Position numbers and translations under genes: made by a program | The notes under the pieces: generated by a model | What the model was told of the DNA's origin: nothing | Databases searched by the model: none | What the model saw: only the letters and a program-made list of their open reading frames with translations | Shown: positions 23,093 to 30,517 of the stretch, piece after piece | Position numbering within the stretch: position 1 is the first letter of the stretch | Layout: the number at the start of each line of letters is the position of its first letter | Origin: Octopus sinensis | Taxonomy: Eukaryota | Reading direction: 5' to 3' | Length of the DNA stretch: 64,000 bases | Assembly: GCF_006345805.1 (NCBI RefSeq) | Contig: NC_043020.1 | Coordinates: 14,570,001-14,634,000 of the forward strand

Positions 23093-23225
23093 GGAGGTAA
23101 TTGTCGAGGTATATTTTGTTGACAAAATAAAAACGAAGTACAAACAATTTTTGTACTCGAAACTGAAAAGAAGAACAATACAAAAATAACAATACAAGAA
23201 TAACAATTTATACCCACCTCGAAGC

Positions 23226-23396
23226 ATGGTGTGTATACCTTGTATTGTAATACCGTTTTTCCTATGGATATTCCACAGATTCCTTCGACCGTTCATTCTA
23301 AAATTCTGGGACCCATGGAAGAAACCCATCAGTTGTGCAGCTGACACGACAACTTCATCTTCTAATTCCACAAAAACTAGCACACCACCTTCAAAA
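23226..23396 (+). CDS. C18orf32: UPF0729/C18orf32 homolog, coding exon 1 (57 codons)
   Basis: Starts [22 protein letters not shown], the UPF0729 signature (human [22 protein letters not shown]). Ends at a phase-0 donor AAA|gtaagt. Confidence 0.92.
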
Positions 23397-25120
23397 GTAA
23401 GTCCCTCGCTCTTCTCAGCATTTTAAACTATCGTGAATTTATTTGTTTATTTTATAAACCGAATTGTGTGAACAATATCATGGTAGGTTATTAACCACTA
23501 GTTTACATTTCCTGATAGTCCAGAATGAAAACAGTGACTGTGCAAATTGTGATGGTATATTTCGGTATTGTTTGAATGCACCGATTCACCTCGTATAATA
23601 ATAGGATGTAAACTAGAACCTGCTTGTGAATTGAACCCACCAGCCGATGGCTGTATAAACCATCAACTGATCCATTTTATTTTTATTTTCTGTTCGGCGG
23701 AGTTTCAGATCAGGACGCACATCTAAGTTGGATGTTTTTTCCGTTTTGACAGGGATTTTTACCAATTTTCCATCCAACATCCTACAGTATTCACTCCAAC
23801 CAGTGAAGATTTTCTCGCTTTAAACTTCCACTTTGCTCTCAATGGCATCAAATCGGGAGTTGACATTCTGAGGAAATCTTGGCTGTTCGACATTTCCGTA
23901 TTTAACTCCGAGAGAACCCTGTTTGAGCAGACCCACTGTCAAAAACAGCTAGACATTCCCACCCGTCCCATTTTTTTTGTTCTGGGTTTAGTGCACTTCC
24001 AAACTACACTATCCACTGTTTTTTTTTTTAAAGACACGAGGTTATTATTGGAGGGAGATTTGCTGCTATTTCTAACAAACCGAGCGATCATTTATAGGTC
24101 TTCCTCATTGACTCATTTACAATAGATAGTTTCTTATAATTGATAATCGATTAACATCGAAAAAATATTTTAAAATCAAAGGACTTCTAGAAGGGTCAAG
24201 GAAAAGTGAAACTAGCGGAAATCAAGTTTTTAATTGTAATTTTTTTATTCGCGACGGGGATGGGTTGTGTAGTTGCCGAAAGATGTTTTTCCTGAGTCGC
24301 TGTTGTCGCCATTTAATTCATAGAGGATACGCAATTACGATTTATTACTAACATCAGTCTGTGTGTGATTGTAACATCACTGCCAAGGATTCCATACGGT
24401 CTGATAACAGAGTTGGTGACAACATGAATTACTCAATTCATACCAACCCTGATCACGTTACTGAACAAGATAAGTTTGTATTTATGTGTGCGTGTGTGTC
24501 ATTATCTAACACTAAATATTTAGTGTCACGGATGAGTTGATTCTAAAAGGTAACTATTATCATTAATCACATTCAAATTAGGTCAGTCACTTCGGAAGTA
24601 ATCGAAATAATGATGATTGCTTTGGTTGATGTTCTGTTTTTCTTGTGTAATGATTAATAAAAAAAGTAAATACTAGCAGTATTACCAATATCAGGATGAA
24701 TAGATATATAATAGATGCGTGTAGATAAGAAAAAAAGTTTTCTTTCGTTAACACCTACTAGAATATTCCTTAACACGCACCATTTACTGAGATTACATAC
24801 ATAATACAAAATCACGTTAAAGTACAAATCTAAAACCGAAGAAACGTAAATACGAGCGAAGAAAACAGACATTGACCATTAAAATATATTTATGTAATAA
24901 ACTAACGTCCCAGTTGAATGATGAATATCAACAAGTTGTTACTAAATAAACCAATGACCAGATCAAGAGATCTACCCCTGGTAGCAATAAACTTAAATTG
25001 GCAATGTCTAACAGGTGTGTCAAATCAAAAGATAATTTTTATTTTAAATTAAAAGAAAAACGTGTAAAAATATATTAGTGAAGAAAAGCTTATAGTAAGT
25101 AGTTAAATTTATTTTCTCTA

Positions 25121-25181
25121 ACTTTCATTTGAAGGTGGTGTGCTAGTTTTTGTGGAATTAGAAGATGAATTGGTAGTGTCA
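25121..25181 (-). repeat. Inverted copy of the C18orf32 exon 1 end and donor (23342-23402)
   Basis: 56/61 complementary; 25128-25169 is a perfect 42-nt reverse complement of 23354-23395. Confidence 0.95.
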
Positions 25182-25246
25182 TAACTCGAGTCTGTTTGAC
25201 AGTAAAGTTTACGTCAGCCGTCTTTGAGGAATGTAGAGAGAGGTGA

Positions 25247-25319
25247 CAGTTCCCAAAATATGACTTCTATTACATAATATGACTTCTATTATGTAATAGA
25301 AGTCATATTTTGGGAACTG
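25247..25319. repeat. Perfect hairpin, 33-bp stem with 7-nt loop
   Basis: cagttcccaaaatatgacttctattacataata-tgacttc-tattatgtaatagaagtcatattttgggaactg. Confidence 0.95.
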
Positions 25320-25471
25320 AAAATTTCCCTTCCTGTATTTCCTTGGATGTTATATAATTTACCGGAAGTTCGTTACCACCTACCCCAATATTTTCTAAAA
25401 AGAAACCTACCATTTGTATTTTTTTCCAGTATATTATATAAATTAAAAGGATGCGAGATAATGAGGTCTGG

Positions 25472-25665
25472 GGATCTTTTCGGTTTGAACGGCAGTTTTT
25501 TCTAGCGGTGTCATATGGAATTGTCACCCATAATTATGACCCTAGAATCGATCTATTGCATTTCAATCTGTTTTAGGGTTAGGGGTGGGGGGAAGGGTAT
25601 CTTTTTTTCTTCACAAATGTAAATAAACCCACTTTGTTTCTTAAACGAGGAACATATTCATACAC
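25472..25665 (+). mobile_element. Truncated copy of the GGATC MITE
   Basis: Matches 44655-44845. Confidence 0.75.
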
Positions 25666-26105
25666 CTGAAATTTGGTGTGAGTGAGCTAGTTGAATACAT
25701 CGACCCCAGTACCCAACTTGTACTTATTTTATCGACCCTGAAAGGATGAAAGGCAAAGTCGACCTCAGTAGAATTTGAACTCAAGTGGTAGCGATGGGTG
25801 AATACTGCTAAGGATTTAGCCTGGCATGCTAATGATTCTGCTAGCTCGCCACCTTGGGAAAATAACATTAACAAGAAAAGCACTGAGAGAGTGCAAACCT
25901 TCACCAAGGTAACACCAACATCCTCTAAATGATTAGCTAGAGATGATTTTTAAAATGAGAATATCTGAAGCAGATCCCATGATCAAAAGCACTCCAGCTA
26001 GGACCATACTGGTTTATAAAATTTTTTTTTTCAGGCATGCTATTCTTTGGACTAAATTATCCAACGTGTCTTTGGATATGGTTTGAGTGAGAGTTAGCTG
26101 CTATT

Positions 26106-26258
26106 TGGCTCATCTTAGCTAAGGTAAATTATCTGATAATCCATGGCTCATCTTAGCTAAGGTAAATTATCTGATAATCCATGGCTCATCTTAGCTAAGG
26201 TAAATTATCTGGTAATCCATGACTCATCTTAACAAAGGTAAATTATCTGGTAATCCAT
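26106..26258. repeat. Tandem repeat, 4 x 38 bp
   Basis: Unit tggctcatcttagctaaggtaaattatctgataatcca. Confidence 0.9.
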
Positions 26259-26518
26259 TTGTTTTATTGTCAAATTGGGTCATAGAAGGAAAGTGCATTT
26301 CAAGTTCATGGATATAACAACATGATACACATAGCACCACAAAATGGTAATTTGCTTCTGTCATTGATTTGTTCAACATCAACATCAACCCTTGCCAGCA
26401 TGGAAAATGGATGTTGAAGATGATTTTTAAAGTATGAACATTAAACTGATGTATTTAAATCAAGTGAAACAGTTATTGTTAAAATTTTTTTAAAAAGATC
26501 CTATTTCTTTTATTGCAG

Positions 26519-26581: not shown

Positions 26582-27104
26582 CCTCAAAATTCATGAAACT
26601 CATTTTGTTTCCATCTGACTTTTCTGAATTTTGGTAAATCATTTGCTAAAGGGATGAAGTGATTTATTAGTTTATTCAATAAGATTTTGTTGAAAATGAC
26701 TAACATTTTATTTTTTAGAAATAAATTTTCAATAAAAAAAAATTATTATTAATTTTAATATGTCAGTCTTTTTTTACTGTAAAACTGAACACTCAGTTGT
26801 TTAGTTTTGTTTATGAGAAATGGTTATGTTGATAAATAGTTGACGTTGTATATTTTAGTTGCAGTAAGCTGTTTAAAAAAAATACTATGAACCTGTGGAA
26901 GAATTAGGCCCAGGAAGATGTGGGATCAGGTAGTGAAATATGATCTTTGGATGTGAGTTTCACACAGGCAACAACAAGTGACTGTGACTTTTGGAAATTT
27001 GTTGTGCTTGAGAAGGCATGACAAGCTAAGTGAAATCACAATGGCCAGTACTGGCAACATATGAAAGGCACCCATGCCGGCAACATGTAAAAGGCACACA
27101 TGCT

Positions 27105-27697
27105 GATGACATGTGAAAGGCAACTGTGCTGGTGACATGTGAAAGGCAACTGTGCTGGTGACATGTGAAAGGCAACTGTGCTGGTGACATGTGAAAGACA
27201 TCTGTGCTAGTGACATGTGAAAGGCAACTGTGCTGGTGACATGTGAAAGACATCTGTGCTGGTGACATGTGAAAGGCACCTGTGCTGGTGACATGTGAAA
27301 GGCATCTGTGCTAGTGACATGTGAAAGACATCTGTGCTGGTGACATGTGAAAGGCAACTGTGCTGGTGACATGTGAAAGACATCTGTGCTGGTGACATGT
27401 GAAAGGCACCTGTGCTGGTGACATGTGAAAGGCACCTGTGCTGGTGACATGTGAAAGGCATCTGTGCTGGTGACATGTGAAAGGCACCTGTGCTGGTGAC
27501 ATGTGAAAGGCATCTGTGCTAGTGACATGTGAAAGACATCTGTGCTGGTGACATGTGAAAGGCACCTGTGCTAGTGACATGTGAAAGGCAACTGTGCTGG
27601 TGACATGTGAAAGGCACCTGTGCTAGTGACATGTGAAAGGCAACTGTGCTGGTGACATGTGAAAGGCACCTGTGCTGGTGACATGTGAAAGGCACCC
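27105..27697. repeat. Minisatellite, about 22 x 26 bp, inside a (GAT)n-tailed element
   Basis: Unit gtgacatgtgaaaggcacctgtgctg, followed by the element's 3' part (27695-27855). Confidence 0.95.
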
Positions 27698-30517
27698 ACT
27701 ATACTCTGGAAATGGTTGGCATTAGGAAGGCATCCAGCTGTAGAAACCAAGCCAAAACAGACGAGCCTGGTGCAGCTCTCTGACTTACCAATTCAAGTAA
27801 AACCAGCTAACCCATGCCAGCATGGCAAACGGATGCTAAATGATCATGATGATGAAGTTGAGCATATTGATCAGAGACTGGAGAAAGGAGTTGACTGAAC
27901 GAGCTTAGGACATTTTAAACTGCTACCTCCAAATGAAGTGAAAAATAGAAGTTGTTATTGTGTGGGAAAATCCAACACACATTTCATGAATGCTGGAGGA
28001 AATGAATTGGTAGGATGTGTGAAGTACAATAGGCCTGATGTGTAGTATGGCAGTGAGAGTACATTCCATCTAGTTTCTTTGTTCTGGTACATCATCGTCA
28101 TCGTTTAACGTCCGTTTTCCATGCTAGCACGGGTTGGACGGTTCGACCAGGGTCTGGGAAGCCAGGCGGCTGCGCCAGGCTCCAGTCTGATCTGGCAGTG
28201 TTTCTACAGCTGGATTCCCTTCCTAACACCAACCACTCCGTGAGTGTAGTGGGTGCTTTTTACGTGCCACCGGTACAGGTGCTGGGGGAGTCTGGCAGCG
28301 GCCACGATCGGTTGGTGCTTTTTACGTGCCACCGGCACAGAAGCCAGTCCAGAGAGATAAATGGATCTCTGTCTATTCCACAGGATACCTTAATGTAATT
28401 CTTGGGCAGAATCAGCATGACAAACACTGGAGCTTTGAATTCCAGGTAGGGTAGAAACCACTCAACAGGATTCCTCACAGTTTCTACAGTTGTTGAATGA
28501 CCAAATAATTAAGAGGGCTCACTTTGCAATCACAAGGTACTGGATTTATCCCCACTGCATGGCATGTGGGGTGGGGAAGGATTTTTTTGCTTCCATAATT
28601 TCACATCCAAACCTTACAAATAGGAGTGAGTCAATGGAAACCATTCAGTTCATCAGATGGATTGTTCCTGGAATTTAAAGATAAACCTCACACTGTGTCA
28701 AGCTAATTGTCTCAGAATCCCCTCAAGGGTTCATGCTTAATCAAAGAGCAGGAAGTTTAGTTGATTCAATCATTGAATGTTCATCATCAAAATCAACAGA
28801 TCTGTTTACTAAAGAGAATGGACATTAAACAATGATGATTATGTAATGATTCTGTGGGAACCTTAGACATAACACCCACCATCTACCATGTCATAATCCT
28901 GCTCTGTAAATACTAAGTAGTTGGATATAATCTTAAGTAAAATCAATCGTTATTAGTAGAAAATCTTGTACCTCAACCAGAGAAACAGCTCTTTATCTTT
29001 TCTTTATTGAGGTTAGAAACTCAAGGGGGGACAAACACAAACACATATATATACGACGGGCTTCTTTCAGTTTCCGTCTACCAAATCCACTCACAAGGCT
29101 TTGGTTGGCCCGAGGCTATAGTAGAAGACACTTGCCCAAGGTGCCATGCAGTGGAACTGAGCCCGGAACCATGTGGTTGGTAAGCAAGCTACTTACCACA
29201 CAGCCACTCCTATGCCTACATATGGACGTAAAATAAATGAAACCGGAAGACTACCATATTGACTATGTGGAAAATTGATGTGATGAGAGGAGTATTAAAA
29301 AATTCTGAAATTGTTGTTAAATTGAGTTTTGAGAAGGAAACTGATGAAAAAGACTTGGTGACACTAGAGATGAGACTGTACTGCAATTGCACTAAATTGT
29401 TCAGAATGAGTGACTCCTGATGTGGTTTACTGACAAAATGATTAGTTTGATGGGCAAATACCTTTGTGGTAGCAGTTCCAATTCTTTGATTTTGAGTCCA
29501 GATCCTGCCACGGTCCACTTCACCATTACATTCTTCTGAGACCAATAAAGTACCTGTCATGTACTGGGGGTTGATGTTCCTCTCGTTCTTGCTCTTAGAA
29601 GCAGCTGTGCTGTTAGAAAGATCACTCTGCACCTCTTTCTTTCAAGCGAGCCACTTTCATTCTACATCACGGTAATACAGCTATGATAGTTTGGTACATG
29701 AAGCCGAGATGGCCAGCTAGATCTGGCCTTTCACACCTACCTTACAATATTATTCTAAAAATAACAAATCACATCACTAAAATATTGAGGCTATGAGTTA
29801 CTCTTTTACTTGTTTCAGTCATTTGACTGTGGCCATGCTGTAGCACCACCTTTAGTCGAGCAAATCAACCCCAGAACTTATTCTTTGGAAGCCTAGTACT
29901 TATTCTATCGGTCTCTTTTGCCGAACCGCTAAGTTACGGGGACGTAAACACACCAGCATCGGTTGTCAAACGATGTTGGGGGCACAAACACAGACACACA
30001 CATAAATATATATATATATACATATATACAACGGGCTTCTTTCAGTTTCTGTCTACCAAATCCACTCACAAGGCTTTGGTCGACCCGAGGCTATAGTAGA
30101 AGACACTTGCCCAAGGTGTCACGTCGTGGGACTGAACCCTGAACCATGTGGTCGGTAAGCAAGCTACTTACCACACAGCCACCTCTATGCATAATTAATT
30201 CAAACCAATGTGAATAAATAAGCATTAGATTTGACAGAGTAAACTGGATACAACAGGATTAAAAGTACTTTTGATAGATTGCTCACAAAATACTAAACAT
30301 AGAGAGTGAGATAAATTATAAGACAAGAACAATCACAACTAATATATTGTATGTTATGGTGAAGAGAGGGAGAGAGAGCAAGGAAATGTTAATAAATTTA
30401 TGTAAAGTACCAGAAAGTATAGTTTGTAGAAGAATGTTAAAAATATGAGAACTCTTTGATGAACAATTAGAACATTTAAATTAATGTTAAGAAGTTGTTA
30501 CAGAAGTAAAGAGTAAA

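What the first reader, a model, noticed from the sequence alone, without database searches (positions are those of the whole stretch)
23342..25181. Intron carries an inverted copy of its own coding exon end and 5' splice site (candidate ADAR exon-complementary sequence or splice switch in C18orf32)
Seen in sequence: 25128-25169 is a perfect 42-nt reverse complement of exon 1 positions 23354-23395. Pairing extends to 61 nt with 5 mismatches (25121-25181 against 23342-23402) and covers the GTAAGT donor. This is unique coding sequence, not a transposon, so the pre-mRNA can fold into a long duplex over the codons for DTTTSSSNSTKTSTPPSK. Established knowledge: intronic exon-complementary sequences direct ADAR recoding (for example the GRIA2 Q/R site), and coleoid cephalopods recode extensively. 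Inference: A-to-I editing of ACA, AAT and AAA codons (Thr>Ala, Asn>Asp/Ser, Lys>Glu/Arg) and/or masking of the U1 site. Intron retention would give the 66-aa read-through form ending ...KVSPSLFSAF*, which lacks the KKDD tail. The 42-nt identity implies either a recent origin or maintenance by selection.
Basis: partly seen in the sequence, partly recalled or inferred. Interest (0 to 1): 0.8.

Follow-up and report, generated by a model that had tools for sequence, protein, structure and literature searches.

The report
Backwards exon scrap in octopus intron
A 42-base piece of a coding exon is copied backwards into the first intron of a small octopus lipid-droplet gene, most likely as a DNA-repair scar; the RNA is predicted to fold on itself there, but the assembled mRNAs examined are spliced normally and show no majority editing, so no function is shown.

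Summary
In detail: 25128-25169 is the exact reverse complement of exon-1 bases 23354-23395 (61 nt, 5 mismatches), with no other genomic match found, and it is present in DNA contigs of three other organism labels that are about 99.5% identical. The donor is paired imperfectly (mismatches at -1 and +2). RNA-like contigs from 4 runs (3 studies) splice at the normal donor and list no A>G in the exon arm; contigs cannot show minority editing. The 5 mismatches sit at the ends (P=0.013) and are all transversions (P=0.005 against other local duplicates), with no G-U or A-C pair. That fits a 42-nt template-switch insertion flanked by imperfect microhomology better than decay or a tuned editing guide. 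A fold-back hairpin lies 65 nt away, and three other low-copy local inverted duplicates occur within 464 kb. The paired codons encode a non-conserved linker. Open points: low-level editing, a minor cryptic donor at 24549/24550 (0.3-1.1% by contig depth), and an Asn shared by the copy and O. bimaculoides. The scan found similar intronic exon copies on other DNA, mostly read as debris. Verdict: probably an ordinary repair scar.

The parts
23226..23396 (+). Coding part of exon 1 of the UPF0729/C18orf32 homologue (57 codons)
   Evidence: RNA contigs leave the genome after 23396/23397 into exon 2
23342..23402 (+). Exon arm with donor; perfect core 23354-23395, imperfect flanks 23342-23353 and 23396-23402
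23397..26518 (+). Intron 1, 3122 nt, GT..AG
24549..24555 (+). Minor cryptic donor (exon side ends 24549) spliced to exon 2; lies in the loop between the arms
   Evidence: loose ends at 24550 in X9, X10, X11 (3 of 4 runs, 2 studies), depth 4.6-12.5
25121..25181 (-). Inverted copy of the exon-1 end; perfect core 25128-25169
25247..25319 (.). Perfect 33-bp fold-back hairpin with 7-nt loop and an internal 16-nt direct re-copy; likely a second template-switch scar, 65 nt from the copy
   Evidence: Rfam gives only hairpin-shape matches far below gathering scores
26519..26581 (+). Coding part of exon 2 (ends KKDD-stop)

Best explanation
A 42-nt backwards copy of the end of coding exon 1 lies 1.7 kb downstream in intron 1 and is likely a scar of microhomology-mediated template switching during germline DNA repair, whose predicted RNA duplex has no shown function. 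Inferred mechanism: a stalled or broken 3' end in the intron annealed imperfectly to the exon-1 donor region on the other strand, copied 42 nt, and returned at a second imperfect match, which would leave a perfect core between two mismatched flanks. The fold-back hairpin 65 nt away would be a second step of the same or a similar event. Once the arm is transcribed the pre-mRNA would form a 42-bp perfect duplex that ADAR may edit promiscuously in some molecules, but splicing at the normal donor dominates and the paired codons encode a free-evolving linker, so the insertion is likely tolerated rather than used.
For: Shown: mismatches confined to the ends (P=0.013 under uniform decay; of the 14 other local duplicates only one was as clustered). 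5 of 5 mismatches are transversions, against 27 of 78 in the 14 other duplicates (P=0.005; Fisher 0.007) and 1 of 17 in locus polymorphisms (Fisher 0.0002; 4 repeat-derived rows were dropped, with them 4 of 21); unrelated sequence gives 69% transversions (P(5/5)=0.15). Flanks are more alike than random intron (1/300 and 13/300), with nothing beyond 61 nt. The copy includes intronic donor bases, so its template was genomic DNA or pre-mRNA, not mRNA. Adjacent hairpin with direct and inverted re-copy. Three other low-copy local inverted duplicates in 464 kb. Normal splicing and unedited majority path in 4 of 4 RNA-like runs. Linker not conserved; no inverted exon copy of comparable length in 28 distant homologous loci, many short. 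Literature: germline templated insertions of 25 bp or more with microhomeology, even a mismatched 3' base, about 100 per human individual (PMC8421209); short template switches create perfect inverted repeats, enriched in introns (PMC7954356).
Against: The copy reads Asn at the last exon codon, as O. bimaculoides P0002 does, where this exon has Lys (chance about 0.07), and 3 of 4 exonic mismatches are third-position (chance 0.11): a hint of an older copy. The 5' flank match (9 of 12) is long for microhomeology. The distance (1.7 kb) exceeds the short-range events of PMC7954356. The pre-insertion allele was never seen. Contigs hide minority editing, the tissues are unknown and RNA status is the tool's guess (though spliced joints show RNA). 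One unlisted difference near a piece end in X9, X11 and X19 could not be placed. The statistics were chosen after seeing the data.
Confidence: 0.62

Rival explanations
1. The copy is a working editing-complementary sequence: the duplex, helped by the 33-bp hairpin as an ADAR-recruiting inducer, recodes Thr, Asn, Ser and Lys codons of the linker in neural tissue at sub-majority levels and is kept by selection.
For: Stable predicted duplex with 16 or more adenosines. Octopus has very high hyper-editing and long near-perfect duplexes are ADAR targets (PMC5625713). A nearby intronic stem can induce editing (Gabra-3, PMC3479170). The human C-terminal region binds SEC22B (PMC12797721). No polymorphism listed in either arm in 4 DNA runs, though under one was expected.
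Against: No majority A>G; no A-C mismatch or wobble; perfect duplexes give non-selective editing (PMC3479170); linker not conserved; most squid recoding sites are edited under 1% (54% neural, 94% non-neural; PMC9068888).
Confidence: 0.15
2. The copy is an older 61-nt duplication that keeps an ancestral exon state at its ends, and its core has since been homogenised with the exon by gene conversion or quasi-palindrome correction, possibly writing sequence back into the exon (the left edge of the core lies 2 nt from the 12-nt indel against O. bimaculoides).
For: Shared Asn with P0002 and third-position bias; clustering of mismatches at the ends; conversion of near-perfect to perfect inverted repeats is a known process (PMC7954356).
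Against: Accumulated point changes should be mostly transitions here, yet 5 of 5 are transversions. No cephalopod outgroup protein was found to polarise the changes.
Confidence: 0.14
3. The duplex is a splice switch: it masks the normal donor so that the cryptic donor at 24549/24550 is used, giving a transcript that would encode the 66-aa form and be a nonsense-mediated-decay target (stop 1123 nt before the junction), or the arm is first spliced out from the cryptic donor and the rest of the intron removed second.
For: Cryptic junction in 3 of 4 runs from 2 studies; freeing the donor costs 4.6 kcal/mol with the arm against 1.9 without; donor pair probabilities 0.66-0.91 at equilibrium.
Against: Cryptic form is 0.3-1.1% of the main contig depth; its 5' end is not connected to exon 1 in any contig; donor mismatches lower the terminal duplex from -24.0 to -15.1 kcal/mol; U1 can bind long before an arm 1.7 kb downstream is made (own knowledge); complementary regions are depleted at active splice sites in human (PMC8052449).
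Confidence: 0.07
4. The copy is an assembly artefact.
For: None found.
Against: Independent DNA contigs from 3 studies break at the repeat and one spans the copy and its right junction.
Confidence: 0.02

Closest known systems
Microhomology-mediated templated insertions (MMB-TI / MMBIR-like; PMC8421209, passages and first part of section 10 read) and short-range template switches (PMC7954356, passages read)
   Same: Short copy from a nearby template on the opposite strand, perfect core, imperfect microhomology at both junctions, a neighbouring multi-step fold-back, location in an intron.
   Different: Template 1.7 kb away and coding; pre-event allele not available, so junctions are inferred; described in humans and apes, not octopus.
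Intronic editing-complementary sequences of ADAR recoding sites (GRIA2 Q/R recalled; Gabra-3 with intronic inducer stem, PMC3479170, passages read)
   Same: Downstream intronic sequence complementary to coding exon sequence near a donor; a second long stem close by.
   Different: Known ones are imperfect duplexes with bulges and mismatches, conserved across species, with shown editing; this one is a perfect 42-bp duplex with no A-C mismatch, no shown editing and no shown conservation.
Inverted-repeat dsRNA hyper-editing substrates (PMC5625713, passages and section 8 read)
   Same: Near-perfect duplex within 2 kb in a pre-mRNA of an animal with high ADAR activity.
   Different: One arm is unique coding sequence rather than a transposon; hyper-editing is rare in coding regions in that study.

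Membership tests
ADAR editing-complementary sequence | Intronic sequence able to pair with the exon in the pre-mRNA | tested here: met
   -84.9 kcal/mol, core pair probability about 1.0; prediction only
ADAR editing-complementary sequence | A-to-I editing in the paired exon | tested here: inconclusive
   No listed A>G in 4 of 4 majority contigs; minority edits are invisible; no raw reads offered; no usable published table
ADAR editing-complementary sequence | Selective architecture (A-C mismatch, bulges, wobble pairs) | tested here: not met
   0 A-C, 0 G-U in register; 42 bp uninterrupted
ADAR editing-complementary sequence | Conservation or compensatory change across species | tested here: inconclusive
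   Only relatives about 99.4-99.7% identical were reached; 28 distant homologous loci show no comparable copy; no O. bimaculoides DNA
ADAR editing-complementary sequence | Editing depends on the element | not testable with these tools
   needs minigene or natural allele without the copy
Microhomology-mediated templated insertion | Insert identical to a nearby template | tested here: met
   42 of 42, only other match found in the genome
Microhomology-mediated templated insertion | Micro(homeo)logy at both junctions | tested here: met
   9 of 12 and 5 of 7 flank matches, above random intron 1/300 and 13/300; transversion-only mismatches
Microhomology-mediated templated insertion | Ancestral allele without the insert | not testable with these tools
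   all laid DNA runs carry the repeat signature; no outgroup DNA
Splice-site-masking long-range structure | Donor sequestered in the duplex | tested here: inconclusive
   mismatches at -1 and +2; extra cost about 2.7 kcal/mol
Splice-site-masking long-range structure | Substantial alternative isoform | tested here: not met
   cryptic-donor contigs at 0.3-1.1% of main depth; none bridging the exon-intron boundary; contig depth is a rough measure
UPF0729 / C18orf32 (host gene) | PF14975 domain | tested here: met
   45.3 bits against cut-off 27

The most novel reading that the evidence does not exclude
A newborn ADAR recoding cassette caught at birth: one repair event gave an octopus housekeeping gene both an exon-complementary arm and an adjacent inducer hairpin, which together drive clustered neural recoding of the linker or divert splicing to a cryptic donor. 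If common (a rough extrapolation suggests a few hundred exon-derived copies in this genome), templated insertions would be a source of new coleoid recoding sites through long-range exon-intron duplexes, which transcriptome-only studies ignore.
Probability: 0.13. Interest if true: 0.62.

Novelty: new member of a known kind. Interest (0 to 1): 0.25.

Why it matters
As it stands it is one more small inverted duplication. It would matter if editing were shown: the cis structures behind coleoid recoding are poorly mapped and intron partners are largely ignored (stated as a limitation in PMC8891338, passage read). A single-copy 42-bp exon-intron duplex in a well-expressed two-exon gene is a clean natural test of whether a perfect long-range duplex alone is enough to recode an octopus exon; a negative result would also be informative.

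Tried and rejected
No RNA holder on record and no raw reads were listed; RNA status of X9, X10, X11, X19 is the tool's guess, supported by spliced joints. No RNA contig covers 25101-25341 or 23398-23517 (0 of 4): rejected as evidence, because intron depth is 3-12, graph cleaning next to a 1000-fold path explains it, and DNA runs X2 and X6 also have a hole there. 8 of 24 listed runs were laid; the likely source run X1 was not. The 12-nt match between 25174-25185 and the promoter (23008) was rejected as chance: another 12-nt match occurs at 28002. mRNA (retro) origin rejected: the copy follows the intron donor, not exon 2. Transposon origin rejected. miRNA family for the hairpin: all Rfam scores far below gathering. 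One background candidate (contig 14714335) proved a high-copy repeat and was dropped; one (14602636) was not checked genome-wide. Gapped extension beyond 61 nt: none. No cephalopod outgroup protein among 268 proteins held. Published editing tables: none of four gene names in the 64,827 readable characters of the PMC8382921 supplement; the PMC9699675 data archive gave only 100 characters; the PMC9068888 spreadsheet was too large; PMC7703385 holds only a PDF, not read; PMC5499236 is not held. These unseen tables may list sites in this gene. A search for C18orf32/UPF0729 with octopus and RNA editing found 0 papers.

Full report
Observation. The match is as described: an exact 42-nt reverse complement (23354-23395 / 25128-25169) inside a 61-nt match with 5 mismatches. 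Searches of the 2.72-Gb genome with the exon and with the intron region returned only these two places. The host is a single-copy two-exon UPF0729/C18orf32 gene of 77 aa, identical to a protein its source names Octopus sinensis. The perfect core ends at exon position -2; positions -1 and +2 of the donor are mismatched.

It is in other animals' DNA. Of 24 runs listed (all contigs, none on record as RNA) I laid 8. Four DNA-like runs of organism labels B, C and D (3 studies) have contigs ending or starting 30 nt inside an arm, and X8 has one contig holding the whole copy and 110 nt past its right junction. These contigs differ from the window by only 3 in 1042 to 10 in 1792 letters, so they exclude an artefact but say nothing on conservation. 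No difference was listed within either arm, where fewer than one was expected.

RNA. In 4 of 4 RNA-like runs (3 studies) the dominant contig leaves the genome at the normal donor and continues into exon 2, at depth 1518, 1107, 781 and 78. The only listed exon difference is 23333 T>C, synonymous, in label B. No A>G is listed in the arm. X9, X11 and X19 each carry one unlisted difference near a piece end; DNA contigs starting at 23150 do too, so a variant near 23150 is the simplest reading for X11 and X19, but the last exon bases cannot be excluded, least for X9; X10 has none. Contigs keep majority paths only, so editing under about half is untested. A cryptic donor at 24549/24550 is joined to exon 2 in X9, X10 and X11 at depth 4.6-12.5, or 0.3-1.1% of the main contig; the piece reaches back to 23854 and is never linked to exon 1.

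Structure. The duplex is predicted at -84.9 kcal/mol with core pair probabilities near 1 in a 2.2-kb fold. It has no A-C mismatch and no wobble in register. Freeing the donor costs 4.6 kcal/mol with the arm and 1.9 without. Perfect duplexes are non-selective ADAR substrates, whereas selective sites sit in interrupted, conserved stems (PMC3479170, passages). The paired codons (40-57) lie outside the conserved N-terminal part; none of 266 other proteins held aligns to this linker convincingly. In human the C-terminal half is disordered but binds SEC22B (PMC12797721, passages), so recoding there is not necessarily inert.

Origin. The five mismatches lie at the two ends (P=0.013 for so long a run under uniform decay) and all are transversions, against 27 of 78 in 14 other local duplicates (P=0.005) and 1 of 17 in locus polymorphisms (four repeat-derived rows dropped, 4 of 21 with them). 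Unrelated sequence gives 69% transversions. The flanks are still more alike than random intron (1/300, 13/300) and similarity stops at 61 nt. This is what imperfect microhomology around a templated insert would leave; such germline insertions with microhomeology, including mismatched 3' ends and multi-template events, are documented in humans (PMC8421209), and template switches create perfect inverted repeats, mostly in introns (PMC7954356). A perfect 33-bp hairpin with an internal 16-nt re-copy lies 65 nt away. These tests were chosen after seeing the data, and the pre-insertion allele was not seen. Against a young origin, the copy has Asn at the last exon codon as O. bimaculoides does (chance 0.07) and 3 of 4 exonic mismatches are third-position (0.11); that species split from O. 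vulgaris about 50 million years ago (PMC9699675, passage).

Background. In 464 kb around the gene, 3.2% of bases have an inverted partner of 40 nt or more at 90% or more within 2 kb, and 6 inverted pairs are two-copy locally, the finding included. Of the other five (four source regions) three regions were checked genome-wide: two are two-copy and one has only two weak distant matches. Three events in 464 kb extrapolate to roughly 17,000 in the genome and, with 1-2% coding sequence (recalled, not measured), a few hundred with an exonic source. This rests on one region. Among 28 distant homologous loci, many short, none has a comparable inverted exon copy; one has a 19-nt match. Earlier notes of this scan list seven similar cases in other genomes: four read as debris or without shown function, one more as young without shown function, one as a likely functional guide and one as possible editing; these are unchecked.

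Verdict. Shown: the copy, its uniqueness, its presence in very close relatives, normal majority splicing, no majority editing in the libraries seen. Predicted: the duplex. Inferred: template-switch origin and neutrality (0.62). Incidental low-level editing is compatible with this and about as likely as not given octopus ADAR activity (PMC5625713; PMC9068888). Rivals: selected editing guide 0.15, older copy with conversion 0.14, splice switch 0.07, artefact 0.02. A search for the gene with octopus and editing found no paper; large published editing tables could not be read.

Noticed in passing
window 24549-24555: Cryptic donor spliced to exon 2 in 3 of 4 RNA-like runs at about 0.3-1.1% of main depth; the junction recreates an AG just before exon 2, so two-step intron removal is possible.
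   Followed up: partly
window 25247-25319: Perfect 33-bp hairpin with an internal 16-nt direct re-copy, no other genomic match found; no Rfam family reached.
   Followed up: partly
window 23352-23363: 12-nt indel against O. bimaculoides P0002 begins 2 nt from the left edge of the perfect core; direction of change unknown.
   Followed up: partly
window 23751: A>G in one RNA contig (X10, depth 4.7), not in X9's contig nor listed in the DNA runs; edit, allele or error.
   Followed up: no
window 23333: Synonymous T>C in RNA contigs of label B (3 runs), absent in label A.
   Followed up: yes
window 26106-26257 and 27048-27711: Tandem arrays: about 4 x 38 nt in intron 1 and about 24 x 26 nt downstream of the gene.
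   Followed up: no
L019:4738-8166, L021:5192-5650, L032:4050-5578: Three other low-copy local inverted duplications; the L032 source is copied in two pieces to two nearby places.
   Followed up: partly
L046, L048: In two metagenome contigs the UPF0729 frame runs on into a glutaredoxin-like sequence (CxYC motif; family recalled, not tested), a possible fusion in another animal group.
   Followed up: no
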